Assembly: GCA_049604415.1 (NCBI GenBank)
Contig: JBMYTN010000006.1
Location: 65,107-129,106, forward strand
Direction of reading: 5' to 3'
DNA: 64,000 bases
Origin: Rhodospirillaceae bacterium
GTDB lineage: Bacteria > Pseudomonadota > Alphaproteobacteria > Rhodospirillales > Rhodospirillaceae
Shown one piece after another: positions 7,691-47,877 of the stretch. The notes under the pieces are model-generated. The model did not search any database. It had not been told where the DNA came from and was given only the letters and a program-made list of their open reading frames with translations. The position numbers were made by a program, and so were the translations under genes. Within the stretch, counting starts at the first letter, position 1, and each line of letters begins with the position of its first letter.

Positions 7691-8265
7691 GCGAGGGGCA
7701 AGGCATGCTGGCAAAGGACATGTATGACTTACGCAGCGATTTGGCAGAGCGCGGCGTCATGTTTTGCTACAGTGGGTTTATGACCGAGCAGGTGCTGACC
7801 GCCATTGGTTCAGCCCTGCGGACCAAATTGGAATTGGACAAGACGGATCGGCAGAGGGCGAAGAACCTGTTTTCGGTCTTTGTCGAACAGGTCCAAAACA
7901 TCATCCGTTATTCCGCCGAACGGGAAATCGGCGACAATGGCGACGAGGACAGCGACAAGGAACTGCGCTATGGCGTGCTTTCGGTGGGTCGCGAAGACCA
8001 AAGGCTGTTCGTCTCCTGCGGCAATCTGATCGTCCAGAAGGACGTGGATCGTCTGCGCAATTCCCTCGACCACATCAAGTCCTTGGATCGCAAGGCTTTG
8101 ATGAAACTCCATAAAGAGACCCTGCGCGGTGCCCGGCCTGAGGGCAGCAAAGGCGCGGGCGTCGGCTTTATTGATATCGCACGTCAAGCGTCGCACGGCT
8201 TTGATTTTGATTTCATGCCGATCAGCGACCAGCACTCCTATTTCTGCCTTAAGGCCTATCTCTGA
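7687..8265 (+). CDS. small GHKL-type Ser/Thr protein kinase, partner-switch kinase (SiaB/RsbW-like)
   Basis: 192 aa. N-box-like FVEQVQNIIRYS and G2-box-like GSKGAGVGFIDIAR resemble anti-sigma-factor-type HATPase kinases. It sits between a PP2C phosphatase and a DUF1987-like protein, the same position as siaB in siaABCD. Confidence 0.55.
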   Translation: MSEGQGMLAKDMYDLRSDLAERGVMFCYSGFMTEQVLTAIGSALRTKLELDKTDRQRAKNLFSVFVEQVQNIIRYSAEREIGDNGDEDSDKELRYGVLSVGREDQRLFVSCGNLIVQKDVDRLRNSLDHIKSLDRKALMKLHKETLRGARPEGSKGAGVGFIDIARQASHGFDFDFMPISDQHSYFCLKAYL

Positions 8266-8273
8266 GAGGACCC

Positions 8274-8666
8274 ATGGCCATGGACAGCATCCAAATCGCC
8301 GCCACACAGCGCACCCCAGACGTTCAATTCAACTTTGATGCCAATGAGTTTAGCATCACGGGCGAGTCCTATCCGGAGAACGTCACCGACTTCTATGGCT
8401 CCCTGATGGAAGCCTTGGAAACCCATCTGGAAAGCCAGGAGGGGGCGAAAGTCACCTTCAAATTCGAGCTGGTCTATATCAACAGTTCGACGGCCAAGAT
8501 CGTGATGGAAATCTTTGATCTGCTTGACCAGACCGGCGAGCGGGGCAATGAGGTGACCATCATCTGGCGCATCGAAGAAGAAGACGACAATATGCAGGAG
8601 CTGGGCGAGGAATTCGCCGAGGACCTGGAGTCGGTCACCTTCACCATTGAAACGTTCTCGGGCTGA
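8274..8666 (+). CDS. SiaC-like (DUF1987) partner-switch phosphoprotein
   Basis: 130 aa. Contains ITGESYPEN and the LVYINSSTAKIVMEIFDLLD block, which I recognise as the conserved core of DUF1987/SiaC proteins. Acidic C-terminus. Operon position matches siaC. Confidence 0.6.
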   Translation: MAMDSIQIAATQRTPDVQFNFDANEFSITGESYPENVTDFYGSLMEALETHLESQEGAKVTFKFELVYINSSTAKIVMEIFDLLDQTGERGNEVTIIWRIEEEDDNMQELGEEFAEDLESVTFTIETFSG

Positions 8667-8671
8667 CGCTT

Positions 8672-9715
8672 GTGGAAAACTCCAAGATCTTCAAACGCGA
8701 AGAAAAGATTGTCGCCGATGCCGAGGCCCTGCTGGCCTCGGATGCCTTGCCGGATGGCGAGGGGCGGGAGTCTTTTGACGCCTTGCTCAAGGCCTATCGC
8801 AAGCTGCTGCGCACGACGTCGAAGCTGGTGAAGATCTCGGACCGCAATGAGGCTGAACTGAACCGGGTCGCCAACACCCTTGATGAGAAGAGCACCATGC
8901 TCGAGGGGCTGTCACAGAACCTGTCAAAATATCTCTCGCCGCAGATTTATGATCAGATCTTCACCGGGGCTCAAGGGGTCGAGCTGAAAACGGCGCGGAA
9001 AAAGCTGACGGTGTTCTTCAGCGATTTGAAGGACTTCACCCAGACCACCGAGGATCTGCAGCCGGAAGATCTGACCTATTTGCTGAACAAATATTTCAGC
9101 GAAATGTCGAAGATCGCCCTGAAACATGGCGCCACCATCGACAAGTTCATTGGCGATGCGATGGTGATGTTCTTTGGCGATCCCAACTCCAAGGGGGTGT
9201 TGGAAGACGCCAAATCCTGTGTCCGCATGGCTATCGAGATGCAGCGGCGCATGGAGGATCTGCGCGAGATTTGGAACGCCAAGGGCTATGAGCATCCGTT
9301 CCAAATGCGCATTGGCATCAACACCGGCTTTTGCAATGTGGGCAATTTCGGCAGTGATGCCCGGATGGATTACACCATCATCGGCAACGAGGTGAATTTG
9401 GCCGCCAGGCTGGAAGGCAAGGCCGAGCCGGGCGGCATCCTGATGTCTTATGAAACCTACGCCCTGGTCCGCGACATTGTTCATGCGGAGCCGCGTGAGC
9501 CGATCCAGGTCAAGGGCATCCGCCGCGATGTGGTGCCCTATGATGTGCGCGGAATCCTTGAGGGCATGGACAGCTCCCGGCGTTTCCTGCGCCATGTGGA
9601 GGAGGGCGTTTTGATGGTGCTCGACCTCGACAAAATGAGTGTCGAAGACAAGCGCCGGACCTTAGAAAAGGTCGAAGGCATGGCCAGCCGCCTGAAGCAA
9701 GAGGTCGGGGAGTAG
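8672..9715 (+). CDS. class III nucleotidyl cyclase (CHD domain), probably an adenylate cyclase, with an N-terminal coiled-coil of about 100 aa
   Basis: KLTVFFSDLKDFT (metal-binding Asp), DKFIGDAMVMFFGDP (Lys before IGD suggests adenine specificity) and NEVNLAARLEG (transition-state Asn/Arg). GTG start 5 nt after the SiaC-like stop. An alternative internal ATG exists. Confidence 0.8.
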   Translation: MENSKIFKREEKIVADAEALLASDALPDGEGRESFDALLKAYRKLLRTTSKLVKISDRNEAELNRVANTLDEKSTMLEGLSQNLSKYLSPQIYDQIFTGAQGVELKTARKKLTVFFSDLKDFTQTTEDLQPEDLTYLLNKYFSEMSKIALKHGATIDKFIGDAMVMFFGDPNSKGVLEDAKSCVRMAIEMQRRMEDLREIWNAKGYEHPFQMRIGINTGFCNVGNFGSDARMDYTIIGNEVNLAARLEGKAEPGGILMSYETYALVRDIVHAEPREPIQVKGIRRDVVPYDVRGILEGMDSSRRFLRHVEEGVLMVLDLDKMSVEDKRRTLEKVEGMASRLKQEVGE

Positions 9716-9769: not shown

Positions 9770-11890
9770 TCAGTCCTCTGCCAAATCACCAAAAAACTCT
9801 GAGCCGGGGGCCACGCCCGAGATCGTCAACCGCTCCCGAGCCCGGGTGCAGGCGACATAAAACAGCTGGCGTTCGGTTTCATAGACCTCATCCAGCTCCA
9901 CCTCATCGGCCACGGTTTCGATCCGGTCCTGATCGGGCAGCACCTCCTCGTCACAGGCCATCACCACCACATGGCGGAACTCCAGGCCCTTGGCCAAATG
10001 CATCACGCCAATGGCCACCCGCCCGGTGCGATCCTCAATGCGGTCGGACAGCTCAAGGGCCTGAGCCCCAGCCTCCTGAACCGCCGCGCGGGCCCGGGGC
10101 AGTTCGGTATCGGAGCGGACAAAGACCCCGATTTCCTCAGGCGGGATGCCCTCATCCAGGGTCTCAAACAAGGCCAGACCGATGGCGGTGATTTCGTCTT
10201 CGGGGCTGTCGGCCACATGCACCACGGGATCGGGACCGTTAAACACCGAGATCGTGCCGCGCCGGTCTTCCTCAATGCCGTCCACATCCCGCACCATGCT
10301 GGGCAACAGCCGATCCGCTGCGCGGCGGATCTGGTGCGAGGTGCGGTAATTGACCTTCAGGGTGTGGGAGCGCCCGCGAATATCGATCCCCAGCCCGAGC
10401 CAGGAAAACGGTTCCTGAAAAATCCGCTGGCCCAAATCGCCAGCAAAGAACAATGCGTCGGGGGTTTTCGGGGCAATGGCGGCCAGCATTTTCAGCGCCG
10501 GGACGCCCAAATCCTGTGCCTCATCGACCAGGATATGATCGAAGGGCTTGTCTGCTCGGTCTTTGTAATGGGCCGTGACCGCGCCAAACACCATGGCCGG
10601 GGTCAGGCTCATTTGGGCCTGTAAGCGCTCCCGGACCTCGGCAAACACCGGCCAGAGCCGTTCCCTCTGCTTGCTGCCCAGCCGGTTTTTCCGGCCCAGG
10701 CGTGGCACCCGGGCATAGGCCTCAAGGCTTTCGATCTGCCAGGCATCAACCACATGACGCCATTCGGACAGCAAGAACCGGTCGGTAAAGCCCTGCAGGC
10801 CTTGGGCTTCAGCGGCCTGGAGCAAGGTCGACCGCACGGTCTCCGGGCTGACGAGGCGCGGCTCATAGCCCTTGATCAAGGTGAACAGCTGCTGTGCGGC
10901 GCCGTCAAAGGGTGCGATGCTGACCCGGTCGGTCAGGATCTGGTCATTGCCGACCAGCAGCCGCAGCTTTTGCCGCAAGGCGTTGCAGAGCGGACTGGAA
11001 AAGCTGGTCAGCAGCAATTTGCTGGCCGGGGCGGTGCGCAGCAAATGGCTGGTCCGGTGCAAAGCCACCACAGTTTTGCCGGTGCCTGCGGATCCGGCAA
11101 TCCGAACCGGGCCGGAGGCGGGGGCCTCTACCAGTTTCTCCTGGTCCGGATGCAGAAAAATCGCCCAGCGATCCCAGGGCGCGTTCAGCGCGTTTTCCAG
11201 GGCCGCGACATTGTCCATGACCCGGAACCGTCGCAGGGCATCGGGATGGCTGAAGGGATCGATCCCCGGCAATTGCTGCTCCGGCGGGCGCAACACCCCG
11301 TCGGCGACATAGCCCAGCAGAGCTTCCATGGCTTCCGCCGGGATATGGTCTGCCAGATCGAGGAAATTGTTTTCCGAAGCATTGTGGACATCGCGCAGCC
11401 AGTCTTCCGGCACCCCGATGCCCAGCAGATCTTCCTCGGTCAATTGCAGGAACAGGGGCGGGTAATAGGGGTCTTGGTCCTCCTCGGCGGCCTCGGCCAT
11501 GGGCGGGGGCAGCGTCGATGTCGGGCCGTCGACGAAGGCCGGGCCGAAGATGGTCTCGACCCGCTCCCGGATTTCCACCAGCTGTGCGGCCCCGGTGCGC
11601 GGATGGGTGTCGATGCGCCGCCGCTCGGCCCAGCGATAGGCCGCGTCATGGTGATCGACATAGGCGATCAGGAAGCTGGACGCGGTTTTATGGACGATCA
11701 ACCGGATGTCGCGATTGACCCGCACCGACCAGAAATTCGGATCCTTGGCGTTTTCGATTCGATGAAACTTTAGGCCCGGATTGGAGGGGTCTTGCTGCAG
11801 GTCAAACACGGTCAGCTTGACCGCCTTTTGCGCCGCATTGGGCAGTTTGGCCAAGGCTGTCTGAAAGCTGTCGGCGAGCAGGAAGATCAT
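9770..11890 (-). CDS. UvrD/REP-family superfamily-I helicase with an N-terminal RelE/ParE-like (toxin-fold-like) domain
   Basis: Walker A GSAGTGKTVVALHR and C-terminal UvrD_C-like LFYVACTRARERLTISG. N-terminal 100 aa (PGLKFHRIENAKDPNFWSVRVNRDIRLIVHKTASSFLIAYVDHHDAAYRWA) matches the RelE/ParE toxin sequence pattern. Confidence 0.75.
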   Translation of the reverse strand: MIFLLADSFQTALAKLPNAAQKAVKLTVFDLQQDPSNPGLKFHRIENAKDPNFWSVRVNRDIRLIVHKTASSFLIAYVDHHDAAYRWAERRRIDTHPRTGAAQLVEIRERVETIFGPAFVDGPTSTLPPPMAEAAEEDQDPYYPPLFLQLTEEDLLGIGVPEDWLRDVHNASENNFLDLADHIPAEAMEALLGYVADGVLRPPEQQLPGIDPFSHPDALRRFRVMDNVAALENALNAPWDRWAIFLHPDQEKLVEAPASGPVRIAGSAGTGKTVVALHRTSHLLRTAPASKLLLTSFSSPLCNALRQKLRLLVGNDQILTDRVSIAPFDGAAQQLFTLIKGYEPRLVSPETVRSTLLQAAEAQGLQGFTDRFLLSEWRHVVDAWQIESLEAYARVPRLGRKNRLGSKQRERLWPVFAEVRERLQAQMSLTPAMVFGAVTAHYKDRADKPFDHILVDEAQDLGVPALKMLAAIAPKTPDALFFAGDLGQRIFQEPFSWLGLGIDIRGRSHTLKVNYRTSHQIRRAADRLLPSMVRDVDGIEEDRRGTISVFNGPDPVVHVADSPEDEITAIGLALFETLDEGIPPEEIGVFVRSDTELPRARAAVQEAGAQALELSDRIEDRTGRVAIGVMHLAKGLEFRHVVVMACDEEVLPDQDRIETVADEVELDEVYETERQLFYVACTRARERLTISGVAPGSEFFGDLAED

Positions 11891-12434
11891 CTGAGTTGGG
11901 ACCGTATTGCCTTTACTATTTCCGCCACTCTAAGATTTAGGCATGCCTAAGGCCTCGTGTGACTTTGACTCTCCTGAAAGGGGTCTCGATTTTGTCGCAC
12001 AAATGCCAAAAGTGGAAAAAGGTCTCGACTGCATACAAGATTATGGGATGTTCGCGTTGCGAGTATAGTATCAGAAATTATGTGCGAAGCAGTAAAATCC
12101 AGAAGGTGTGTTTCAAAAACAAGACAGCCTGCTGTGTCTTGAGCGGCACTTCAGCACCCTCAGGAACGGCTATTCCGATGAATAAGTCCACTTGCCGAGC
12201 GGAAAGCAGAGCCCGGAACACGAAAATCAGAAAACGAAACCGATAGCCGCTGAAAGGGGACCTGAACGCGCTGCGGAAGTCAGGCGATTGCAATCCTAAT
12301 ACAGCAGCATAAAGTCGAACGCTCGCAGATTGATTATGCGTTGAAACTCCACTATTTTCTTATCCTGTTGTGGTCCTGCAGAGCGGGTTTCAAGACTGAA
12401 TTGATCGGCAGGGCAAAAGCTAAGGGGCAGGGCA

Positions 12435-15400
12435 ATGGGGACGACATTTTATGATCAGCCAATTCTGAACTCCCCTTACGAGGAGCCGTCTCGTCATCAC
12501 GCGCTGGATGATGAGGGGCAGCCAACAGATGATGAGCCGGTTCTCGGTCGACGGAAATCGGATCTTACAACCCCAATGGTCCCAGGCAATCGTCGTCAGC
12601 GGGCGAATGAGGCTGCAGGTCAAACATCTTTGGGTCTTGGGATTGACGCGGGCGATGAGGGAGATGATCAGCAATATGATCCAACCCCAATCATCAACGA
12701 AATTCGATCCAAGGTCGCGGAATGGCGAAGGCTCCCGAGTACCACGGATTGGGGTGTGACACCAGCAACAGCGCGCTTGTTGAAGCATTGGCGGGACTAT
12801 GACTATTCGGGTATTCGCCCCTTCTTTTGTCAAATCGAAGCGGTGGAAACGATTATCTGGCTGACAGAAGTCGCCCGGAAGCAAAAGACAGGCGGGCATT
12901 TCTGGCGTCATATTGAGAGCGCGAACAGGGTCGCAAACCCCGATTTGCTGCGGCTGGCTATGAAAATGGCGACTGGGTCAGGCAAGACCACGGTCATGGC
13001 GATGTTGATTGCATGGCAGACCGTGAATGCGGTGCGGTCACCCACAAGCAAGTTATTTTCTCGCGGTTTTTTAATTGTTTCGCCCGGCATTACGATCCGG
13101 GATCGCCTTCGCGTTCTCATGCCGAACGATCCGCAGGGCTATTACAAGACCCGTGAACTCGTCCCGGCCGACATGCTGGAAGACATCAATAAAGCAAAGA
13201 TTGTCATCACCAACTATCATGCTTTCCAACTCAAGGAACTGATGGACACCAACAAAGTTGGGCGATCTTTGTTACAAGGACGTGGTGAGGAGCTGAAGAC
13301 CAAAGAAAACGAAGGGCAGATGGTCCGTCGGGTTGCAGAAGAGCTCATGGGGATGAAGAACGTCGTCGTGATCAATGACGAGGCTCACCATTGCTATCGG
13401 GAGAAACCGGGCAATGATGACATCCAGGAGCTCAAAGGCGATGAAAAGAAAGCAGCCGAGGAGGAAAATAAGGCGGCGCGCCTTTGGATCAACGGCATCG
13501 AAGCCTTCAAAAAGAAACTTGGTGTTCGATTTGTTTTTGACCTTTCAGCCACACCCTTTTTTCTTAGCGGTTCCGGCTGGCGGGAAGGGGCATTGTTTCC
13601 CTGGACGGTGAGCGACTTTTCCCTGATCGATGCGATTGAGTGTGGCATCGTCAAGTTGCCTCGTGTTCCTGTGGCGGACAATGCACTGATCCCTGGCAAC
13701 GAAATGCCGGTCTACCGAGAACTTTGGAGGCATATCGGTAAGGAGATGCCCAAAAAGGGTCGGGGCAAAGGGGGGGGCGACGCAAATCCGATGGACATCC
13801 CGGACATGCTGAAAACCGCTCTGTTCGCGCTCTACAAACATTACGCGGAAACCTTTGAACAATGGAAACGAGCGGGGATTGAAACGCCGCCTGTTTTTAT
13901 CGTCGTGTGCAATAACACCTCGACGTCAAAATTGGTGCAGGAGTGGATATCGGGCTGGGAGCGGCCCAATGAAGACGACGAAATGGTCTTTGAACATAAT
14001 GGGCATCTGGAGCTCTTTCGGAACTACGACAACAATGGAATCCTGCTCCATAGGCCCAATACGCTTTTGATCGACAGCATGCAAATCGAAAGCGGAGAGG
14101 CGCTGGACGATAACTTTAAAAAGATTGCGGCCAAGGAAATTGAGCTCTTCCAACGCGAGCGGAAAGAACGCGGGGAGCACGGTGATATCACCGATAGCGA
14201 ATTGCTTCGCGAAGTCATGAATACTGTCGGCAAAAAAGGTCGACTGGGTGAGCAGGTCCGTTGCGTTGTTTCTGTCTCCATGCTGACGGAAGGGTGGGAC
14301 GCCAACACCGTGACACACATTCTGGGCATTCGCGCTTTCGGCACCCAGTTGCTGTGCGAACAGGTCGTGGGTCGGGCACTGCGCCGGTATTCTTATGACC
14401 TCAACGACGCCTCTCTGTTCAATGTCGAATACGCCGACATCATGGGGATTCCTTTTAATTTCACGGCCAAGCCGCAGGTCGCTCCGCCAAAACCGCCAAA
14501 AAAGACGGAACGGGTGATGGCCATGAAGGAACGCTCCAACCTAGAGATCATCTTTCCGCGCGTCGCGGGATATCGGGTTGACCTTCCGGAAGAACGATTG
14601 CCTGTCAAATTTACCGAGAACTCCAGCTACACCCTGACGCCCGAGGAGGTTGGTCCGGGTCAGGTGTTGATGGAAGGTATTGTCGGTGAAAGTGTTTTGA
14701 TCTCGGCGGGAGAAGCGCAGAAACTTCGCCTCAGCACCATTTCATTCAATCTCGCCAAACACGTCATGCTTAAATATTTCAAGGACGAGGATGGCGAGCC
14801 GAAGCTGCATCTGTTTGGCCAAATCAAGCGCATCGTCAGGCTATGGCTGGATGGCGGCTATTTCGAAGCCAAGGGTGATACCGGGACGTGGATGCTGGCC
14901 TCCTATCCGAATGTGCAAGCGCAAGCGGGGGAGAGGATTTACAATGCCATCGTCAATGGCATGAACGCCGAAGAGGAAGCCGGTGACCTGGAACCCCGCG
15001 TAAAAGCGGTTCTCGACCCTTATAATCCGAAGGGCTCAACCGCCCATGTCGGCTTCCAAACGACGAAATCTTTGTTCAAAACGTCGCCTGTCAAATGCCA
15101 CATAAACTATGTTGTGGCCGATAGTGGATGGGAAGATCAGTTCGCGATCGCCGCTGAAGCAAACCCCAAAGTCTTGTGTTATGTGAAAAACCAAGGGCTC
15201 GGCCTGGAGGTGCCATATAAGGATGGTTCGAATGCCAGGGTTTATATCCCGGATTTCATTGTTCAAATCGATGACGGCCATGGTTCCGACGACCCGTTAA
15301 ACCTGATCGTCGAGGTCAAGGGATATCGGAATGAAAACGTCAAGCTGAAATCTGAAACAATGAACACCCAATGGGTCCCTGGCGTGAACAACCTCGGCCA

Positions 15401-15536
15401 GTGGGGGCGGTGGGCCTTTGTCGAGTTCCAGGACGCTTGGTCGATGCCGAATGAATTTCAGGAGCTGATCGAAAAGTTTCTCGACAAAGTGATTGGCGAC
15501 TTCGTTGATCAGAATGCCGATGGGGAGGCTGCTTAG
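12435..15536 (+). CDS. Type III restriction enzyme Res-like subunit (SF2 helicase + C-terminal PD-(D/E)xK nuclease)
   Basis: 1033 aa. Walker A MATGSGKTTVMAM, DEAH box VINDEAHHC, helicase motif VI-like QVVGRALRR. C-terminal YIPDFIV...LIVEVKGY is a PD-ExK nuclease motif. AAGGGG Shine-Dalgarno upstream. Confidence 0.8.
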   Translation: MGTTFYDQPILNSPYEEPSRHHALDDEGQPTDDEPVLGRRKSDLTTPMVPGNRRQRANEAAGQTSLGLGIDAGDEGDDQQYDPTPIINEIRSKVAEWRRLPSTTDWGVTPATARLLKHWRDYDYSGIRPFFCQIEAVETIIWLTEVARKQKTGGHFWRHIESANRVANPDLLRLAMKMATGSGKTTVMAMLIAWQTVNAVRSPTSKLFSRGFLIVSPGITIRDRLRVLMPNDPQGYYKTRELVPADMLEDINKAKIVITNYHAFQLKELMDTNKVGRSLLQGRGEELKTKENEGQMVRRVAEELMGMKNVVVINDEAHHCYREKPGNDDIQELKGDEKKAAEEENKAARLWINGIEAFKKKLGVRFVFDLSATPFFLSGSGWREGALFPWTVSDFSLIDAIECGIVKLPRVPVADNALIPGNEMPVYRELWRHIGKEMPKKGRGKGGGDANPMDIPDMLKTALFALYKHYAETFEQWKRAGIETPPVFIVVCNNTSTSKLVQEWISGWERPNEDDEMVFEHNGHLELFRNYDNNGILLHRPNTLLIDSMQIESGEALDDNFKKIAAKEIELFQRERKERGEHGDITDSELLREVMNTVGKKGRLGEQVRCVVSVSMLTEGWDANTVTHILGIRAFGTQLLCEQVVGRALRRYSYDLNDASLFNVEYADIMGIPFNFTAKPQVAPPKPPKKTERVMAMKERSNLEIIFPRVAGYRVDLPEERLPVKFTENSSYTLTPEEVGPGQVLMEGIVGESVLISAGEAQKLRLSTISFNLAKHVMLKYFKDEDGEPKLHLFGQIKRIVRLWLDGGYFEAKGDTGTWMLASYPNVQAQAGERIYNAIVNGMNAEEEAGDLEPRVKAVLDPYNPKGSTAHVGFQTTKSLFKTSPVKCHINYVVADSGWEDQFAIAAEANPKVLCYVKNQGLGLEVPYKDGSNARVYIPDFIVQIDDGHGSDDPLNLIVEVKGYRNENVKLKSETMNTQWVPGVNNLGQWGRWAFVEFQDAWSMPNEFQELIEKFLDKVIGDFVDQNADGEAA

Positions 15537-16724
15537 GTGTCTCCTCGAAATGTCATAGAGGCACCAGAATTCTCGGAATTTGCCTTTGGCTTTTGCGTTA
15601 CTCAGGGGGTCGTAAATCTTCGCTTTGGTCAGTTTAGCCCATTTGGTGCTTCTGTCCGATTTGCCGCTCGGCACCGGGCAATACTATGGGATTGGGGTCA
15701 TTTGCACTATGAGTTGATACATGATTTTGGTCTTAGTCCGAAACAAGCCCGAGCCGTGCTCAACGAAACAGGTGCTCCCTTCCATCCGACGCAGAGTCAA
15801 GAAGCTACCTTCCCGATTGATGTCGCTATGACGAGCAACGGGGTCGCGTGCTTCTTTCAGTATAAGCGATGTGACTGCGTGACTGGCTCCCATAGCTCTT
15901 TGACTGAAGTAACGCAGGGAAGCTTTAGCAGCTTAGAGAAGCCATTCTATCGAGTGAATTTCAAGTGGACGGCACCTAATCCAAAAAAACCAAACTGTGG
16001 CGGTGATTTTAATCAGAGAGAGCAATTAGAGAGACTAGAAAACGCGTTATCCCATATTCCTTCAGCGTTGGTCCGCTATGTGGTCCCGGCATTCCATAAA
16101 TCGGAAGAGTTGGATATCGTTCAACAGGATGGCGTCGCTGCGCGATCAGATGGAGAACCGCTTGTCCTTTGTTTTCCAGCCAGCGCATTTTCGTTGCCTG
16201 CGGGGACAAATCACCATGTGAGCTTCGATAGAGCCTGCACCGCTTTTCGGCATTCCAAAGGGTCAGAGCCAGTGCAAGGATTTAGCCCGCTTGAAGACGA
16301 AATTGAGCGCTCGTCCGAAGAAACCAAACAGCCAGTGTTCAAGACCATACATAGTCTGCGCAAGGACCTTGATGCGTTTGCATCGAATTTAGGCGTTCCG
16401 GATCCGCCGGAACAGATCGATGATCAAAATTTGCTTCGGTTCTTTGGGATATGGCCTCGCCGCAAGCCCCGCGCATCAGATCAAGATTACTTGCGATTTT
16501 TTGCCGACGTCGAAGAGACACCGACAGAGATTTCGGACCTGTCGACAGGCCTCCGCAAGCTCTTAAAGCAACCGCTCGACAAATCACTCGTTGCTCTAAA
16601 GAATTATTCGCCCATGTCTTTTGTGGAAGATTGGTTTGCTGCGGATTTTCGCTGCCGACAGATCATTGGGCAGCCCTTGGGGGTAAACATAATGAGCTTA
16701 GGGGGCGGGCAAAATGGCGCGTAA
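15537..16724 (+). CDS. hypothetical protein encoded between Res-like and Mod-like genes (no recognisable motifs)
   Basis: 395 aa. GTG start immediately after the Res stop and 3' end overlapping the Mod start by 11 nt, so it is translationally coupled within the operon. AT-richer codon usage than the flanking genes. Confidence 0.5.
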   Translation: MSPRNVIEAPEFSEFAFGFCVTQGVVNLRFGQFSPFGASVRFAARHRAILWDWGHLHYELIHDFGLSPKQARAVLNETGAPFHPTQSQEATFPIDVAMTSNGVACFFQYKRCDCVTGSHSSLTEVTQGSFSSLEKPFYRVNFKWTAPNPKKPNCGGDFNQREQLERLENALSHIPSALVRYVVPAFHKSEELDIVQQDGVAARSDGEPLVLCFPASAFSLPAGTNHHVSFDRACTAFRHSKGSEPVQGFSPLEDEIERSSEETKQPVFKTIHSLRKDLDAFASNLGVPDPPEQIDDQNLLRFFGIWPRRKPRASDQDYLRFFADVEETPTEISDLSTGLRKLLKQPLDKSLVALKNYSPMSFVEDWFAADFRCRQIIGQPLGVNIMSLGGGQNGA

Positions 16725-19686
16725 ACCAAAGGCGCCGAAACAGGTCGAGACGCTGACCCATGCGGAAGCAAAACGGAAGAATATCCCGACGGCAGAATTG
16801 CAATCGGCTGCGGAGCGGATTGAGGAGCTATCCCCCTTTGAGCCCGTGACCTATCCGCGCGCGCACCCATTGGCCGAAGGTGAAACGAGAGAGCGAGACG
16901 AAGATTTGGACCCGCAGATTATTTGGAAGGGGGCGACCCTTTCGCTTACGCCCGAGCAGGTCGAGGAATTGACAACGACCGGCAAGCTCGAAATCGGCGA
17001 GGCGCAACTGACTTGGCGCGGCAAGGATACGCAGGACTGGTCGGACCTCGTGGTTCAAGCACCACCGCTCTACATCCAGGAAAAGGTTCATCCAAAAGCG
17101 ATCATCGAAGACCTCAAGCGTAAGTCGGAAAAACGCGCGAAGGAAAAAACCGACGCGCCCGACCTCTTCGATATGTTTGGGGATTTCAACGGCATCGACC
17201 CGGAAGCCAAGACCGAGTTCTACCAGCACGATCAGAACTGGCAGAACCGTATGATCCTGGGCGATAGCCTTCAGGTCATGGCGAGTCTGGCAGAACGTGA
17301 GGGCCTACGGGGCAAGGTTCAGTGCATTTATTTTGACCCTCCGTATGGGATCAAGTTTGGTTCAAATTGGCAAGTTTCAACCAGATCGCGTGATGTCAAA
17401 GACGGCAAGTTAGATCAAATCAGTCGCGAACCTGAGCAAGTAAAGGCGTTTCGCGACACTTGGGCTGATGGTATTCACTCTTATCTGACCTACTTGAGAG
17501 ACCGGTTTACGCTTATGAGAGATCTGCTCTCTGAAACTGGCTCAATATTTGTGCAGATAGGGGATGAAAACGCTCATAGAGTGCGATCTCTTTTGGATGA
17601 AGTTTTTGGCGAAGAGAACTTTCTCAATACTATTTTTTACAGAACTACTGGGGGGCTCGCTACAAAAGGGCTTAGCAGGGTTGGTGACATTGTTCTCTGG
17701 TATGCGAAAGATTTGCCGAGAGCTAAATTGAGAAAACTGTATTCAGAAAAATTACCATCTGAAGACAAGAATTACAGGATGCTCGATCTTGGGGGCTTCC
17801 AGATTAGAGGACTCGATGCTGAAGAACAGGCTGGCTTGAAGAGAATTCCAGACCGAAGTCGAGTGTTCAGGTATGACAACCTCACTGGTCAAGGTAGCTC
17901 TGATCACGAGACCCCCCTTCAGCTTGGCGGCAAAATCTATTATCCGCCCAAAAACACGCATTGGAAAGCCAACTATCCTGATGGGATGATGAGACTTTTA
18001 AGGTCTAATAGGCTTCATGCAGGCGGAAATACAGTTAGCTATAAAAGGTATTTAGATGACTATTTGGTAAAACCGATTGTATCCGTTTGGATGGATACTG
18101 GTGTATCTGGTTTTTCCTCAGACAAGCTATACGTGGTTCAAACTTTGCCAGATGTTATCAAGCGATGCATTTTGATGACCAGCGATCCTGGCGATATAGT
18201 TTTTGATCCAACATGCGGATCGGGGACCACCGCATATGTTGCCGAGCAATGGGGACGACGGTGGATTACAATAGACACCTCTCGCGTCTCTCTTGCTCTC
18301 GCTCGGTCGCGCATCATGGGCGCGCGTTATCCATATTATTTGCTCGCTGACAGTCCTGATGGCAAAGATAAAGAGCAGGATATTACCGGAGCGTTTCAAC
18401 CCGACACGCCAACCCGCTACGATATTCGACATGGCTTCGTCTACGAACGCGCCCCGCACATTACCCTCAAATCCATTGCTAACAATGCCGAGATCGACGT
18501 CATTTGGGAAAATTGTCAGGAGGAGCTGGAACTACTTCGCGAACGCTTGAACTCCGCGCTCGGCAAGTCTTGGGAAGAATGGGAAATACGACGCGAGGTC
18601 GATGGCGGCTGGTCCAAAGACGCCAAGGATGCGCACGCCAAGTGGTGGGAGTTGCGGATTGCCCGCCAAGCAGAGATCGACAAATCCATTGCTCAAAAAG
18701 CAGATGTGGAGTTGCTCTACGACCGACCCTACGAGGACAATTCAAAGGTCCGTGTGGCTGGGCCTTTCACAGTCGAAAGTCTGTCGCCGCACCGGGTTGT
18801 TCCCGCAGATGAGGAAGAACTGATTGATTTGGTTGATGCTGCAGAGGGCCATCGGGATCGCTCGAATGCACCGCAAAAAGACTTTACGGCGATGATCCTG
18901 GAGAACTTGAAATCCGCAGGGGTCCATCAGGCCGCAAAAGAAGACCGCATCAGCTTTAACAGTATTGATGGTTGGCCGGGCACATATATCGCCGCCGAAG
19001 GGTATTTTCAGGATGGCGGGCAAGAGGCGAGAAGCGGCGAAGCCGCGACAGGGAAACAACAAGGCATTGAGAAGCGGGCGGCGATCTTTGTCGGACCGGA
19101 ATTCGGCACCGTAACCCGTGCCGACCTAACAGCGGCAGCCCGCGAAGCCAATGATGCTCGGTTCGACGTCTTGATCGCTTGCGGGTTCAATTTTGATGCG
19201 CATTCATCAGAGCTGACTCGCATGGGGCCGTTGCCGATCCTGAAGGCCAAGATGAACCAAGACCTCCATATGTCCGACGAGCTCAAGAATACCGGCAAGG
19301 GCAATCTGTTCACGATCATTGGCGAGCCGGATATTGACTGGAACTTCGATGATGACGGCAATATCGTCGTCGAGGTCCTTGGTCTGGATGTCTTCGATCT
19401 TAGAACCAGTGAGGTGCGGGCCAGCGAGAAGGATGATATTGCGGCCTGGTTTATCGACACCGACTACAACGAAGAAAGCTTCTTTGTCCGCCACGCCTAT
19501 TTCCTCGGGGCGAACGATCCCTACAAGGCCCTGAAGACCAGCCTGAAAGCCGAGATCGACAAGGAAGCCTGGGAATCCCTCTATCGCGACGTGTCGCGCC
19601 CGTTCCCCAAACCGGAAACGGGTCGCTTTGCCGTCAAAGTTATCAACCACTTCGGCGACGAAGTGATGAAGGTGTTTTCGGTGTAG
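16714..19686 (+). CDS. beta-class DNA amino-methyltransferase (N6-adenine or N4-cytosine), Type III Mod-like, with a 150-aa N-terminal and roughly 430-aa C-terminal extension
   Basis: 990 aa. Motif X-like NRMILGDSLQVMASL, motif IV DPPYG (CIYFDPPYGIKF), then about 280 aa (target recognition region), then motif I VFDPTCGSGTT. The order IV then I indicates beta class. The C-terminal 430 aa has no recognisable motif. Confidence 0.8.
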   Translation: MARKPKAPKQVETLTHAEAKRKNIPTAELQSAAERIEELSPFEPVTYPRAHPLAEGETRERDEDLDPQIIWKGATLSLTPEQVEELTTTGKLEIGEAQLTWRGKDTQDWSDLVVQAPPLYIQEKVHPKAIIEDLKRKSEKRAKEKTDAPDLFDMFGDFNGIDPEAKTEFYQHDQNWQNRMILGDSLQVMASLAEREGLRGKVQCIYFDPPYGIKFGSNWQVSTRSRDVKDGKLDQISREPEQVKAFRDTWADGIHSYLTYLRDRFTLMRDLLSETGSIFVQIGDENAHRVRSLLDEVFGEENFLNTIFYRTTGGLATKGLSRVGDIVLWYAKDLPRAKLRKLYSEKLPSEDKNYRMLDLGGFQIRGLDAEEQAGLKRIPDRSRVFRYDNLTGQGSSDHETPLQLGGKIYYPPKNTHWKANYPDGMMRLLRSNRLHAGGNTVSYKRYLDDYLVKPIVSVWMDTGVSGFSSDKLYVVQTLPDVIKRCILMTSDPGDIVFDPTCGSGTTAYVAEQWGRRWITIDTSRVSLALARSRIMGARYPYYLLADSPDGKDKEQDITGAFQPDTPTRYDIRHGFVYERAPHITLKSIANNAEIDVIWENCQEELELLRERLNSALGKSWEEWEIRREVDGGWSKDAKDAHAKWWELRIARQAEIDKSIAQKADVELLYDRPYEDNSKVRVAGPFTVESLSPHRVVPADEEELIDLVDAAEGHRDRSNAPQKDFTAMILENLKSAGVHQAAKEDRISFNSIDGWPGTYIAAEGYFQDGGQEARSGEAATGKQQGIEKRAAIFVGPEFGTVTRADLTAAAREANDARFDVLIACGFNFDAHSSELTRMGPLPILKAKMNQDLHMSDELKNTGKGNLFTIIGEPDIDWNFDDDGNIVVEVLGLDVFDLRTSEVRASEKDDIAAWFIDTDYNEESFFVRHAYFLGANDPYKALKTSLKAEIDKEAWESLYRDVSRPFPKPETGRFAVKVINHFGDEVMKVFSV

Positions 19687-19695
19687 TAGGCAGAA

Positions 19696-20061
19696 ATGGC
19701 ACGGAAATTAACGTCTGACCAGGAAATCGATACTTTTATCGCCAAGGTTATTAGGGAGGCGCAGCATCACGCTCCTGATGTCGCGCAAATCATCATGCCT
19801 CTGTCGAAGGTGGTGAGGGCCCGGCTCAATTTGACCCAGGACCGCGTCGAAGTTTATGAGCGGAAGGGGCAGATGGCACGGACTTGTTGGGTAACAATTT
19901 CCGGAAAAAGATATGTGTTTTCATACAATTATAAGAATCATAAAATTGATTTGCGAGAAAAATCAATTCAAGGCACTTCGAAATATCAGTTTGATAACGA
20001 GACCGATTTAGACAAATTTGAAAGTGATTTTTTCGAGTATGTGAAGGCTGTTGGATATTAG
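19696..20061 (+). CDS. small hypothetical protein (121 aa) at the distal end of the R-M island
   Basis: Starts 10 nt after the Mod stop. AT-rich 3' half. No motifs recognised. Confidence 0.4.
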   Translation: MARKLTSDQEIDTFIAKVIREAQHHAPDVAQIIMPLSKVVRARLNLTQDRVEVYERKGQMARTCWVTISGKRYVFSYNYKNHKIDLREKSIQGTSKYQFDNETDLDKFESDFFEYVKAVGY

Positions 20062-29820: not shown

Positions 29821-30375
29821 ATGGCCGAAAAGCCCGATGACACCACCGCCACCGCCGCTGATGCCCCCGAAACGGACGCTCCGGAGGCCGATGCTGCGGT
29901 TGAGGAAACCTCTAAAAAGGACGAAGCCCTGAAGCTCGTTCGCCGCTTCAGCTATTGGGGCATTGGGGCCAGCGCCATCCCCGTGATGGTCGTCGACACC
30001 GCTGCTCTGCTCGCCGTGCAACTGCGTATGGTGCAGAAGTTGTCCGAGCATTATGAGGTTGAGTTCAAAGAGAACGTCGTCAAATCCGTGATCACGGCGG
30101 TTGCTGGCAGCACGGCAGCGGGCATCATTGGCCATTCCGTTGTGGGCCGTGTCCTCGGCGGCATTCCGACCGTTGGTCCGGTGCTGAAACTGGCCAGCGC
30201 GCCGGTGGTCGGTGGGGCCTTCACCTATGCGGTTGGCAAAATGTTCACCGAGCATTTCGAATCCGGCGGCACCTTGCTGACCTTGGACACCGCCAAGGCC
30301 AAGTTGCGTTGCAAAAAGATCATGGAAGAAGAATCCTCTTCCTCCGATGACGCTGCGGCCCAAGCCGCCGCCTAA
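29821..30375 (+). CDS. DUF697-like protein paralog with acidic N- and C-terminal tails
   Basis: WGIGASAIPVMVVDTAALLAVQLRMVQKLSEHYEVEF... is collinear with 22929-23684. AGGAAG Shine-Dalgarno upstream. Followed by an intrinsic terminator. Confidence 0.55.
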   Translation: MAEKPDDTTATAADAPETDAPEADAAVEETSKKDEALKLVRRFSYWGIGASAIPVMVVDTAALLAVQLRMVQKLSEHYEVEFKENVVKSVITAVAGSTAAGIIGHSVVGRVLGGIPTVGPVLKLASAPVVGGAFTYAVGKMFTEHFESGGTLLTLDTAKAKLRCKKIMEEESSSSDDAAAQAAA

Positions 30376-30444
30376 CACTGTCTTCAGGCCCGGCCCCACC
30401 TTCGGGTGATCAGGTCCGACTTTGAGGTTTGATCATTTCGGGCA

Positions 30445-30486
30445 GGGGCGACGATCACGGATTTGGATCGCCGCCCCTTTCCTTTG
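30445..30486 (+). terminator. rho-independent terminator
   Basis: GGGGCGACGATC-loop-GATCGCCGCCCC followed by TTTCCTTTG. Confidence 0.55.
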
Positions 30487-30813
30487 CGTAGCCTGTTGTC
30501 CCTCTCCTTGTTCCTTCCCTCCGATCCTGTCTCATCGATCCATCCCACCGATCACGCCCCGGCATCCTGGCATTGGGCTGTTCGCCTAAGCGCTTTTTGC
30601 GGCAGTTAACGCAGGAAAATTCCGCCATTGGCTGTGCTAGGTTTGCGCTGCGGTGGAGGGACCTGTATGATCCCCCTCTCTATTGGTTGCGAACCAGGAC
30701 ATGAAGCCAGGGTTTGCCGGATCGATCTGACAGTCTTCCGGCCTCTGTTGTCCTGTCCGGTTCATCCCTATGTCGCACCACCCCGATCCTGTTGTCCCGC
30801 CAGAGGCGCCCCC

Positions 30814-31065
30814 ATGCTGTTCATGTTATTTGCCCTCTATGTGACTGGGTGCATTGCCGTCGGCATATTGGGCCGCAATGGGCGGTTGGGGTTTTTTGGC
30901 CATTTCTTTATCGGGCTTTTGTTCACCCCGTTTGGGGATCTGCTGGTCCAGTCCATCGCCTCCCGGATGAGCCTGCGCAAGGCCCAGGAGGAGGCTGACG
31001 ACTGGGACGACGAAGACAGCGACGAGGAAGAAGATCCCTCGTCTTCTTCCCGGTTCTCCTCGTGA
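30814..31065 (+). CDS. small membrane protein with acidic C-tail, possible NfeD-like partner of the downstream SPFH protein (tentative)
   Basis: MLFMLFALYVTGCIAVGILG...FFIGLLFTPF are two TM segments, then DDWDDEDSDEEEDP. Ends 2 nt before the SPFH gene. The longer ORF from 30628 looks like an artefactual extension. Confidence 0.35.
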   Translation: MLFMLFALYVTGCIAVGILGRNGRLGFFGHFFIGLLFTPFGDLLVQSIASRMSLRKAQEEADDWDDEDSDEEEDPSSSSRFSS

Positions 31066-46939: not shown

Positions 46940-47022
46940 AGCGGGTGTTCTGATCCTGTCTACCCTCCGTAGGACTTTGTGCCTGCGGGGGGTCGATTGG
47001 TTCACTGACCAAAGGGGATCCC

Positions 47023-47868: not shown

Positions 47869-47877
47869 GGGCGGCAG

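What the first reader, a model, noticed from the sequence alone, without database searches (positions are those of the whole stretch)
12435..20061. Type III-like R-M operon with atypical order and an inserted unknown gene (Res - X - Mod - small ORF) on a low-GC island
Canonical Type III systems are mod-res with a Mod of about 650 aa. Here a Res-like helicase-nuclease comes first (Walker A, DEAH, C-terminal PD-ExK). It is followed, with overlapping or abutting start/stop codons, by a 395-aa protein with no recognisable motifs.

Next comes a 990-aa beta-class amino-MTase carrying a 150-aa N-terminal and a roughly 430-aa C-terminal extension, and then a 121-aa ORF.

The tight coupling implies the unknown protein is a stoichiometric component such as a specificity, regulatory or third catalytic subunit. 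Together with the extended Mod, this may be an undescribed Type III-like defence variant. Local AT-richness indicates horizontal acquisition.
Basis: partly seen in the sequence, partly recalled or inferred. Interest (0 to 1): 0.7.

Follow-up and report, generated by a model that had tools for sequence, protein, structure and literature searches.

The report
Restriction operon with embedded nuclease gene
This is a member of an already catalogued, widespread Type III-like restriction-modification operon (Res, Mod and a UvrD-like helicase), and the "unknown" gene between Res and Mod is a rare, uncharacterised nuclease-fold passenger, one of many unrelated genes found at that spot in related operons.

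Summary
The four ORFs, their tight coupling and the low-GC island are real. The core is not undescribed. Res scores 1264.6 bits against NCBIfam NF046055, "BPTD_3080 family restriction endonuclease" (cutoff 800). Mod matches PADLOC MTase_III model PDLC03632 end to end. Res-before-Mod order holds in every related locus examined.

It follows Mod in most complete related loci; here it lies upstream and divergent (9770-11890, minus strand).

X (395 aa) is not a stoichiometric core subunit. In 26 Res-seeded related loci, 11 have Res and Mod abutting, 15 carry at least 12 unrelated inserts there, and none carries X. Inserts include PADLOC candidates PDC-S11 and PDC-S15, NYN, REase-ARP, DUF3883 and a toxin-antitoxin pair. 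The Mod|UvrD junction is a second cargo site (GmrSD, CBASS, HNH).

Best reading: X is an embedded accessory defence nuclease, co-translated with the R-M genes. That kind of arrangement is known; the protein family is new. Moderate interest.

The parts
9770..11890 (-). UvrD-like SF1 helicase (706 aa). This is the conserved third gene of the operon family; here it is inverted relative to Res-Mod and has host-like GC (0.628).
   Evidence: Pfam UvrD-helicase, UvrD_C and AAA_19. PADLOC GajB-like UvrD models. Homologues of 50-74% identity lie downstream of Mod on the same strand in 22 of the 34 distinct related loci that carry both genes. PGAP names it "3'-5' exonuclease" or "UvrD-helicase domain-containing protein". 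The N-terminal ~90 aa give a sub-threshold HigB/RelE-like hit (E 6e-4, 20.7 bits against a cutoff of 27).
11891..12434 (.). Divergent intergenic region (544 bp, GC 0.483) between the UvrD-like gene and Res. It is the presumed promoter region and the left edge of the low-GC block.
   Evidence: No credible small regulator ORF was found. Promoter and terminator scans did not exceed shuffled expectation.
12435..15536 (+). Res: SF2 helicase-like ATPase with a C-terminal PD-(D/E)xK endonuclease (1033 aa), BPTD_3080 family.
   Evidence: NCBIfam NF046055 equivalog at 1264.6 bits (cutoff 800) over residues 7-1011. Pfam ResIII and RE_endonuc. Only weak, partial hits to canonical Type III Res models: PRK15483 at 21.6 bits against 564, and PADLOC REase_III at E 2e-5. 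Motifs conserved in 32 homologues.
15537..16724 (+). X: embedded cargo gene (395 aa) in slot 1. Predicted PD-(D/E)xK-fold nuclease of an uncatalogued family. The catalytic-type motif E89...D95...Q108-x-K110 is encoded at 15801-15866.
16714..19686 (+). Mod: beta-class amino-methyltransferase (990 aa). It has a conserved N-terminal region, a catalytic domain, a variable target-recognition region and a conserved ~450-aa C-terminal region of unknown fold.
   Evidence: PADLOC PDLC03632 MTase_III at 1194 bits, covering 6-989 of the protein and 8-982 of the 983-position model. Pfam N6_N4_Mtase 202-524. Nearest solved relatives are Type III Mods 6k0w and EcoP15I 4zcf. The C-terminal region has at least 8000 homologous clusters. 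Its AF2 model was poor (pLDDT 60, pTM 0.34).
17617..18147 (+). Hypervariable segment of Mod (about residues 302-478) between motif IV (DPPY) and motif I (DPTCGSGTT). This is the presumed target-recognition domain.
   Evidence: In alignment A3 the three Mods are over 85% identical outside this segment and almost unalignable inside it.
19696..20061 (+). 121-aa ORF in the position of slot 2 (directly after Mod), GC 0.429. Second cargo gene of unknown function.
   Evidence: Pfam PF18315 VCH_CASS14 "integron cassette protein" at E 7e-13. phrog_5959, unknown function, at E 4e-7. No PADLOC or NCBIfam hit. No homologue in the related loci.

Best explanation
The locus belongs to a widespread, already catalogued Type III-like restriction-modification family whose conserved core is Res (BPTD_3080 family) -> Mod (~990 aa) -> UvrD-like helicase.

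**How the core probably works (inferred from family knowledge).** Mod methylates an asymmetric site set by its variable target-recognition segment. Res uses its ATPase to communicate between unmodified sites and cuts with its C-terminal PD-ExK domain. The role of the UvrD-like protein is unknown.

**Cargo sites (shown).** The family has two internal cargo sites, Res|Mod (slot 1) and Mod|UvrD (slot 2). In different genomes these are empty or hold unrelated, mostly nuclease-type or known-defence genes.

**What X is.** X occupies slot 1 here, and the 121-aa ORF sits in the slot 2 position. X is an optional, fast-evolving, compositionally distinct passenger with a PD-(D/E)xK nuclease fold. It is expressed with Res and Mod by translational coupling. 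Its optional status and fold are shown; its function is inferred.

**Most likely role (inferred).** X is a second-layer defence nuclease embedded in the R-M operon. It either acts on its own or is held in check by, or guards, the R-M complex, as PrrC does in EcoprrI or BrxU in BREX. It is not a specificity or catalytic subunit of the R-M enzyme.

**This locus is rearranged (shown).** The low-GC Res-X-Mod-ORF block is inverted relative to a host-GC UvrD-like gene whose closest relatives differ from those of Res. This points to module replacement by recombination.
For: **Core identity**
- NF046055 at 1264.6 bits against a cutoff of 800.
- Full-length PADLOC MTase_III model PDLC03632.
- Res-Mod-UvrD collinear in related genomes and plasmids.

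**X is optional**
- Of 26 Res-seeded loci, 11 are compact, with Res stop and Mod start abutting or overlapping (gaps of -1 to +7 nt in nine of them; 38 and 44 nt in L009 and L061).
- The other 15 carry other inserts, and none carries X.

**Slot 1 inserts are mutually unrelated**
- DUF6119, NOV_C/DUF3883, REase-ARP/PDDEXK_13, NYN, FRG and an IS transposase.
- PADLOC phage-defence candidates PDC-S11 (E 1.6e-74) and PDC-S15 (E 1.2e-62).
- A UPF0175+DUF3368 pair in PCC 7002 pAQ5.

**Slot 2 inserts**
- HTH+GmrSD, HNH_2, DUF4062 and a metallo-beta-lactamase-fold protein.
- A CBASS phospholipase plus nucleotidyltransferase directly after Mod in L047, a locus with no UvrD-like gene.

**Swapping and loss**
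- Near-identical Res genes (L016, L017) flank different cargo.
- X-bearing loci are interleaved with empty ones on a Res NJ tree.

**X behaves as a separate module**
- X has lower GC than its flanking Res and Mod in every locus.
- X diverges about twice as fast: 42% identity where Res and Mod are ~73%.
- More distant X relatives sit in other defence contexts: next to an AAA_15/21/23 ATPase, between an MmeI-type MTase and GmrSD-HNH, and next to DUF499+DUF3780.

**Nuclease assignment:**

[quoted passage not shown] PrrC is embedded in a Type IC locus (PMC12707154).
Against: - Within the X clade (at least 36% identity), all 9 independent contexts are, or were, the Res|Mod slot. The apparently free copy, L038, still carries the first 7 codons of Mod. 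So functional dependence on Res/Mod is not excluded, and X identity tracks Res identity, which suggests co-inheritance.
- The second acidic residue of the nuclease motif is an invariant glutamine, so catalytic competence is unproven.
- Foldseek against the PDB gave no significant hit (best Hjc, E 0.13).
- No experiment or methylome is available.
- Published embedding surveys did not cover Type III systems.
- The tree is a quick NJ tree without support values.
Confidence: 0.6

Rival explanations
1. X is a genuine lineage-specific third subunit of the R-M enzyme. It binds Res and/or Mod and supplies a second cleavage activity or alters target selection.
For: - Translational coupling on both sides.
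- Every member of the X clade lies between Res and Mod.
- X identity tracks Res identity across loci.
- Many slot 1 occupants in other loci are also REase-fold proteins, which could mean the slot holds interchangeable nuclease modules that work with the complex.
Against: - Res keeps its own intact PD-ExK domain.
- 11 of 26 related loci have nothing between Res and Mod, and others carry non-nucleases such as FRG or a toxin-antitoxin pair.
- X-bearing loci are not a single clade of Res.
- Distant X relatives occur without Res or Mod.
Confidence: 0.17
2. X and other slot occupants are selfish elements that have colonised a conserved intergenic junction. They would be free-standing homing-endonuclease-like or addiction genes that spread by cleavage and repair or by post-segregational killing, rather than contributing to defence.
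For: - The slots also contain HNH_2 and a weak GIY-YIG hit, a toxin-antitoxin pair and IS or Tn3 elements.
- Insertion is exactly at the stop/start junction between highly conserved flanks.
Against: - Slot genes include recognised defence modules: GmrSD, CBASS, PDC-S11 and PDC-S15.
- X relatives elsewhere sit in defence islands.
- X is absent from the phage and plasmid collections.
- X co-diverges with Res rather than showing recent horizontal spread.
Confidence: 0.08
3. X is a catalytically dead or non-defence protein, for example a DNA-binding regulator or scaffold derived from a nuclease fold. It would modulate expression or activity of the R-M genes.
For: - Glutamine replaces the second acidic residue of the (D/E)xK motif in all 52 relatives.
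- About 220 residues of helical N- and C-terminal regions have no assignable function.
- No regulator gene lies upstream of Res in this window, whereas other loci have HTH or XRE genes there.
Against: - E89, D95 and K110 are strictly invariant, and the D-13-QxK spacing matches the Hjc-type hairpin. Such conservation is more typical of an active site.
- QxK and other substitutions are tolerated in active PD-(D/E)xK enzymes (general knowledge, not tested here).
Confidence: 0.08

Closest known systems
Classical Type III R-M (EcoP15I, EcoP1I)
   Same: - Two-gene logic: a beta-class Mod with an internal variable recognition region, and a Res with an SF2 ATPase plus a C-terminal PD-(D/E)xK domain.
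- The nearest solved Mod relatives are Type III Mods 6k0w and 4zcf.
   Different: - Gene order is res->mod.
- Mod is ~990 aa, with a conserved ~450-aa C-terminal region absent from EcoP15I Mod (644 aa).
- Res fails the canonical Type III Res models (21.6 bits against 564; PADLOC E 2e-5, partial).
- A UvrD-like helicase is a conserved third gene.
- The family has two internal cargo slots.
RefSeq triad [quoted passage not shown], e.g. Pseudomonas avellanae plasmid p1NCPPB4222
   Same: Same three protein families in the same Res->Mod order (57%, 55% and 51% identity). The window's Res passes the curated equivalog cutoff.
   Different: The reference locus is compact, with no gene between Res and Mod. 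In the window X is inserted, a 121-aa ORF follows Mod, and the UvrD-like gene is inverted upstream with a different GC.
Genes embedded in multi-gene defence systems (guilt-by-embedding; HEC/PDC candidates; BrxU in BREX)
   Same: - A co-oriented gene nested inside a defence operon that also exists without it.
- The same slot holds known defence genes in other genomes.
- Two slot occupants in related loci are PADLOC candidates PDC-S11 and PDC-S15.
   Different: - The published survey covered Hma, BREX, DISARM and Type I R-M, not Type III-like systems.
- X matches none of the PADLOC v2 models.
- The X clade is so far seen only in this host operon.
PrrC anticodon nuclease in the EcoprrI Type IC R-M locus
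   Same: A nuclease gene embedded between R-M genes and almost exclusively found in that context. This offers a model in which the R-M complex silences the passenger until a phage anti-restriction factor disables it (PMC12707154).
   Different: There is no sequence or domain similarity: PrrC is an ABC-ATPase plus HEPN-type RNase, whereas X is a PD-(D/E)xK fold. Interaction with and activation by the R-M complex are untested.
Hjc / RecU / VRR-NUC / I-Ssp6803I type PD-(D/E)xK nucleases
   Different: - X is three times larger, with extra helical N- and C-terminal regions.
- Glutamine replaces the second acidic residue.
- No Pfam membership, and Foldseek was not significant.
Type III systems with an extra helicase gene (UvrD-Cas4 next to Mod/Res; m4C Type III with an SF2 ATPase)
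   Same: Comparative genomics has already linked extra helicases to Type III Mod/Res loci (PMC5704561; PMC8259958).
   Different: The helicase here has no Cas4 domain; it ends with UvrD_C and has an unassigned ~245-aa N-terminal region. It is SF1, not the SF2 ATPase placed 5' of mod that Murray et al. describe.

Membership tests
Type III restriction-modification (EcoP15I-like) | Mod is a beta-class N6A/N4C methyltransferase: motif IV DPPY, then the recognition region, then motif I FxGxG | tested here: met
   DPPY at residues 208-211 and DPTCGSGTT at 498-506, with a hypervariable segment between them. Pfam N6_N4_Mtase. Best solved relatives are Type III Mods.
Type III restriction-modification (EcoP15I-like) | Res has SF2 helicase-like ATPase motifs plus a C-terminal PD-(D/E)xK nuclease | tested here: met
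   Pfam ResIII and RE_endonuc. Walker A, DEAH, motif VI and PD...ExK are conserved in 32 homologues.
Type III restriction-modification (EcoP15I-like) | Sequence membership of Res in the canonical Type III Res models | tested here: not met
   NCBIfam PRK15483 at 21.6 bits against a cutoff of 564. PADLOC REase_III models matched only at E 2e-5 to 8e-4 over ~50 residues. No PDB relative by sequence.
Type III restriction-modification (EcoP15I-like) | Operon order mod then res, with two genes only | tested here: not met
   Order is res->mod in the window and in every related locus that has both genes. A UvrD-like third gene is conserved.
Type III restriction-modification (EcoP15I-like) | Hemimethylation of an asymmetric site, with ATP-dependent cleavage needing two inversely oriented unmodified sites | not testable with these tools
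   Needs a methylome and biochemistry.
BPTD_3080-family Res / long Mod / UvrD-like operon | Res passes the NCBIfam NF046055 equivalog cutoff | tested here: met
   1264.6 bits against 800, covering residues 7-1011 of the protein and 2-969 of the 970-position model.
BPTD_3080-family Res / long Mod / UvrD-like operon | Partner Mod of ~980-1000 aa with the conserved C-terminal region | tested here: met
   PADLOC PDLC03632 at 1194 bits, full length. 46-74% identity to Mods of related loci. The C-terminal region has at least 8000 homologous clusters.
BPTD_3080-family Res / long Mod / UvrD-like operon | UvrD-like helicase downstream of Mod on the same strand | tested here: inconclusive
   An intact homologue (50-74% identity) is present, but upstream, divergent and with different GC. 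A few family loci lack it nearby.
Embedded (nested) defence gene | Lies between genes of a multi-gene defence system, on the same strand | tested here: met
   Coordinates and coupling.
Embedded (nested) defence gene | The host system also exists without it, and the same site holds other, unrelated genes including known defence genes | tested here: met
   11 of 26 loci are compact and 15 of 26 carry other cargo.
Embedded (nested) defence gene | Homologues also occur outside the host system | tested here: inconclusive
   Relatives at 33% identity or less do occur elsewhere (L052, L053, L055, L056). All members at 36% identity or more are in the slot or are a decayed slot (L038).
Embedded (nested) defence gene | Confers phage resistance | not testable with these tools
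   Needs plaque assays.
PD-(D/E)xK nuclease superfamily (for X) | Alpha/beta restriction-endonuclease-like core fold | tested here: met
   [not shown]
PD-(D/E)xK nuclease superfamily (for X) | Catalytic E / D / (D/E)xK residues | tested here: inconclusive
   E89, D95 and K110 are invariant, but position 108 is an invariant glutamine. Active-site geometry and activity were not tested.
DISARM / BREX | Signature proteins: DrmA/B/C or PglZ/BrxC/PglX | tested here: not met
   The PADLOC scan of all four proteins gave only R-M methyltransferase and REase hits, plus a weak mad2 hit.
Integron gene cassette (for the 121-aa ORF and X) | attC recombination site flanking the ORF, with an integrase nearby | tested here: not met
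   Genes abut or overlap, leaving no room for attC. No flanking repeats were found. The Pfam name reflects where the family was first crystallised.

The most novel reading that the evidence does not exclude
The BPTD_3080-type Res-Mod-UvrD operon may be a dedicated carrier. Under this reading its two gene junctions are recombination hot spots where diverse effector nucleases are exchanged, and the effectors are functionally wired to the R-M complex.

X would then be a new family of guard-type effector. Res/Mod would hold it inactive, and it would be released to degrade DNA, perhaps branched or replicating DNA given its Hjc-like fold, when a phage anti-restriction factor disables the R-M enzyme. 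That would make it a Type III counterpart of PrrC/EcoprrI.
Probability: 0.2. Interest if true: 0.65.

Novelty: new member of a known kind. Interest (0 to 1): 0.42.

Why it matters
- **The core is unstudied despite being common.** It belongs to a very large Type III-like family (at least 8000 Mod clusters). Apart from a curated name, I found no paper describing its function, and no role has been assigned to its conserved UvrD-like partner.
- **Its two junctions could be mined for new defence genes.** Because they act as cargo slots, the guilt-by-embedding approach could be extended from Type I R-M, BREX and DISARM to Type III-like systems.
- **X is a concrete candidate.** It is a rare nuclease-fold family with no database annotation and is tightly co-expressed with an R-M enzyme. 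It would be a good test of whether embedded genes act independently or as guards of their host system.
- **Annotation.** The 340-aa call for X in the source MAG is probably 55 codons too short. The UvrD-like gene should be counted as part of the system.

Tried and rejected
- **DISARM, BREX or MADS membership.** The PADLOC scan shows only R-M-type hits.
- **Integron cassette origin of the 121-aa ORF or X.** There is no room for attC and no flanking repeats.
- **Repeats that could explain the inversion of the Res-to-ORF block relative to UvrD.** Only short matches of the kind the repeat tool warns are often chance.
- **Promoter and terminator scan.** Counts equal shuffled expectation.
- **A small regulator upstream of Res.** None is credible in the window.
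- **L038 as proof that X occurs free of Res/Mod.** Rejected, because the first 7 codons of Mod (MERKPKA) follow X before an IS6 transposase, so it is a decayed slot.
- **Structure of the Mod C-terminal 450 aa.**
  - An alignment from a database search gave a poor model (pLDDT 60, pTM 0.34), so no fold search was run on it.
- **Fold and sequence searches for X.**
  - The afdb50 fold library was unavailable.
  - Foldseek against the PDB was not significant.
  - Sequence profiles of X and of the UvrD N-terminus against the PDB found nothing meaningful.
  - X has no match in the plasmid or phage collections.
- **Literature.**
  - A search for "BPTD_3080" returned no papers.
  - A possible link between this family and the m4C Type III enzyme Bpe564I of B. 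pertussis (PMC8259958) could not be verified and remains only a lead.
- **Correction to an earlier estimate.** My figure of a 40-55 bp Res-Mod spacer in compact loci came from where the tblastn alignments ended. The true gaps are -1 to +7 nt in most.

Full report
**1. Observation**

The four ORFs exist exactly as described:
- Res, 12435-15536, 1033 aa
- X, 15537-16724, 395 aa, GTG start
- Mod, 16714-19686, 990 aa
- a 121-aa ORF, 19696-20061

All are on the + strand. The Res stop (TAG) is followed directly by the X start codon, with a GGGGAGG Shine-Dalgarno-like run 8-9 nt upstream. X overlaps the Mod ATG by 11 nt, again behind a purine-rich run. Nine nucleotides separate Mod from the last ORF.

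GC is 0.528, 0.502, 0.520 and 0.429 for the four genes, against 0.59-0.60 for the rest of the window.

Res carries Pfam ResIII and RE_endonuc. Its Walker A, DEAH, motif VI and PD...EVK motifs are all present in the window's Res and, apart from the ExK lysine in two, conserved in 32 homologues. Mod has N6_N4_Mtase at 202-524, with DPPY ahead of the FxGxG-type motif, which is the beta-class arrangement of Type III Mods.

**2. The core is a known family, and the unit is larger than the finding**

Res scores 1264.6 bits (cutoff 800) against the NCBIfam equivalog NF046055, "BPTD_3080 family restriction endonuclease". It scores only 21.6 bits (cutoff 564) against the canonical Type III Res model. 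Mod matches PADLOC MTase_III model PDLC03632 over its whole length at 1194 bits.

I retrieved 30 related loci from reference genomes and examined nine plasmid loci. In all of them Res precedes Mod. In most, a ~700-aa UvrD-like helicase follows Mod on the same strand. PGAP annotates the compact triad as BPTD_3080 endonuclease, site-specific DNA-methyltransferase and "3'-5' exonuclease".

The window does contain this helicase, at 9770-11890 on the minus strand, divergent from Res. It is intact and 50-74% identical to the others. Its GC is 0.628, like the host. In every other locus its GC is close to that of Res and Mod. Its best match (74%, L041) belongs to a locus whose Res is only 66% identical, whereas the best Res matches are L048 (92%) and L036 (78%). 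So the low-GC Res-X-Mod-ORF block and the helicase gene probably have different histories, consistent with inversion and/or module replacement. No repeats explaining this were found.

**3. X occupies a variable cargo slot**

The 26 loci found through Res rather than through X are 18 genome contigs and 8 plasmids with both genes. They divide as follows:
- 11 are compact. Res stop and Mod start overlap or abut, with gaps of -1 to +7 nt in nine; two have 38-44 nt.
- 15 carry something between Res and Mod.
- None carries X.

The slot 1 inserts are unrelated to each other by BLASTP. They include:
- DUF6119
- NOV_C/DUF3883
- REase-ARP/PDDEXK_13
- an NYN-domain protein
- an FRG-domain protein
- an IS transposase (for the six items above)
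- a UPF0175 + DUF3368 pair in Picosynechococcus PCC 7002 pAQ5
- several unannotated proteins, some with weak REase-fold hints

Two insert families are PADLOC phage-defence candidates: PDC-S11 (E 1.6e-74) and PDC-S15 (E 1.2e-62).

The Mod|UvrD junction is a second slot. It holds:
- HTH+GmrSD
- HNH_2, DUF4062 and a metallo-beta-lactamase-fold protein
- a CBASS phospholipase plus nucleotidyltransferase directly after Mod, in a locus with no UvrD-like gene
- several unknowns

The window's 121-aa ORF (Pfam VCH_CASS14, function unknown) sits in that position.

On a quick NJ tree of Res (no support values), X-bearing loci fall in at least four places, interleaved with compact loci and a DUF6119-bearing one. 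Nearly identical sphingomonad Res genes flank different cargo. The core therefore persists without X, and cargo turns over.

**4. What X is**

X hits nothing in Pfam, NCBIfam, PADLOC or PHROGs. It has only 7 homologues among 5.8 billion protein clusters. A profile search of 1.84 billion representatives found 18 full-length relatives (E<1e-30) and about 140 weaker hits, mostly ~260-aa proteins, that share its central domain. The ten relatives sampled had no Pfam match, and the seven sampled had no PADLOC match.

- NgoMIV and other restriction enzymes

Foldseek also ranks Hjc first, but not significantly (E 0.13).

The motif is E...D-(13 residues)-QxK, a PD-(D/E)xK pattern with glutamine in place of the second acidic residue. 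Helical regions of about 75 residues (N-terminal) and 145 residues (C-terminal) are unassigned.

The strongly conserved N-terminus (PEFSEFxFG from residue 10) supports the 395-aa reading over the 340-aa NCBI call.

**5. How tightly X is tied to the operon**

All relatives of at least 36% identity with readable flanks lie between Res and Mod: L001, L003, L036, L039, L041, L048, L049 and L051. L038 looked free-standing, but the first seven Mod codons survive after X before an IS6 transposase, so it is a decayed slot.

X identity to the window tracks Res identity but falls faster:

| X identity (%) | Res identity (%) |
|---|---|
| 78 | 92 |
| 73 | 87 |
| 42 | 73-78 |
| 40 | 66 |
| 37 | 64 |

X also has lower GC than its flanking genes in every locus.

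More distant relatives occur in other settings, most of them defence-type:
- alone, near an AAA_15/21/23 ATPase
- next to glucokinase, a non-defence setting
- after a PsyrA/DprA-like gene, between an MmeI-type methyltransferase and a GmrSD-HNH protein
- between DUF6946 and DUF499+DUF3780

X has no match in the plasmid or phage collections.

**6. Interpretation**

The pattern matches what has been described as genetic embedding. Co-oriented genes nested within Hma, BREX, DISARM and Type I R-M operons are mostly known or new defence genes. PrrC is an example found almost exclusively embedded (bioRxiv 10.1101/2024.01.29.577857; PMC12707154).

My best explanation (confidence about 0.6) is that X is an optional embedded defence nuclease, co-translated with a Type III-like R-M enzyme. 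It is not a subunit that defines a new R-M type.

Shown:
- family membership of the core
- the two slots
- that the core occurs without X
- the nuclease-type fold and motif

Inferred:
- that X is catalytically active
- that it defends against phage
- whether it acts alone or is controlled by Res/Mod

The exclusive slot residence of the X clade keeps a PrrC-like guard relationship, or even true subunit status, alive as alternatives. I put the subunit rival at about 0.17. A selfish homing-endonuclease-like element and a catalytically dead regulator each get about 0.08.

**7. Relation to known systems and novelty**

In mechanism the core most resembles Type III R-M. It fails two membership features of the classical family: the Res sequence models and the mod->res two-gene layout. 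It is better filed under the curated BPTD_3080 family.

Extra helicases next to Type III genes have been noted before: UvrD-Cas4 (PMC5704561) and an SF2 ATPase in m4C systems (PMC8259958). The helicase here lacks a Cas4 domain and has only a sub-threshold HigB/RelE-like N-terminal match.

I found no paper on the BPTD_3080 family. The embedding survey did not include Type III systems. The two-slot architecture in this family and the X protein family therefore appear undescribed in what I could search, but both are instances of known kinds.

Verdict: new member of a known kind, with moderate interest (0.42).

**8. Limits**

- There is no experimental or methylome evidence.
- The fold of the Mod C-terminal region could not be determined.
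- The slot survey covers 26 loci out of thousands.
- The Res tree is unsupported NJ.
- The afdb50 fold library was unavailable.

Noticed in passing
window 9770-11890 (minus strand) versus 12435-20061: The UvrD-like gene has GC 0.628 (host-like), while Res, X and Mod have 0.50-0.53. It is divergent rather than downstream. Its closest homologue (74%, L041) comes from a different lineage than the closest Res (92% L048, 78% L036). This suggests module replacement or inversion by recombination. No mediating repeats were found.
   Followed up: partly
window 11620-11890 (residues 1-90 of the UvrD-like protein, minus strand): The N-terminus (…FWSVRVNRDIRLIVHKTASSFLIAYVDHHDAAY…) gives a sub-threshold Pfam HigB-like/RelE-like toxin hit (E 6e-4, 20.7 bits against a cutoff of 27) and a weaker ParE-like hit. 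A RelE-fold domain fused to an SF1 helicase would be unusual. It was not confirmed by a PDB sequence search.
   Followed up: partly
window 19696-20061: The 121-aa ORF (GC 0.429, the lowest in the block) belongs to Pfam PF18315 (VCH_CASS14, a Vibrio integron-cassette structural-genomics family) and to phrog_5959. Its function is unknown. It sits where other loci carry slot 2 cargo.
   Followed up: partly
window 15537-15701: The source MAG record annotates X as 340 aa (P0001). Residues 10-34 of the 395-aa reading are strongly conserved across relatives of 27-79% identity, so the annotated start is probably 55 codons too late.
   Followed up: yes
L047 (Methylomagnum ishizawai plasmid pRS11DPr6) 14681-17189: A two-gene CBASS module (cGAMP-activated phospholipase plus nucleotidyltransferase) sits directly after Mod in the slot 2 position. 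No UvrD-like gene follows it.
   Followed up: no
L055 6269-7689: A distant 258-aa X-like protein overlaps by 4 nt with an upstream 215-aa DprA/PsyrA-like protein (PADLOC PsyrA, E 4.8e-12). The pair lies between an MmeI-type methyltransferase and a GmrSD-HNH protein. It may be a two-gene module that uses the X-type nuclease domain.
   Followed up: partly
L038 1580-1660: After X, the first seven codons of Mod (MERKPKA) survive and are followed by an IS6-family transposase. Upstream, in place of Res, there is what looks by eye like the 3' end of a tRNA gene (GGTTCAAATCC...; ARAGORN finds no tRNA gene in L038). This is a decayed Res-X-Mod locus.
   Followed up: yes
L016 versus L017 (sphingomonad loci), slot 1: Nearly identical Res genes flank different slot 1 genes: a 340-aa NOV_C protein in one and an unrelated 304-aa protein in the other. 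This is direct evidence of recent cargo exchange between conserved flanks.
   Followed up: partly
L051 9452-12106: In this X-bearing locus, gene calling splits Mod into 378-aa and 371-aa products separated by a ~400-bp gap. This is possibly a frameshifted or inactivated Mod next to an intact Res.
   Followed up: no
window 3176-9715: The host genes upstream form a signalling cluster resembling SiaABC. It comprises a 1504-aa SBP-PAS-SpoIIE phosphatase, a DUF6272 protein, a SiaC-family phosphoprotein, and an adenylate/guanylate cyclase where a diguanylate cyclase would be expected.
   Followed up: no
window 30001-31000, 35001-36000, 47001-49000: These 1-kb bins have strongly negative AT skew (-0.23 to -0.30), far from the window average. 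Only an ORF list and a tandem-repeat scan were run, which found a short 12-24-nt repeat array at 31414-31476. The cause was not established.
   Followed up: partly
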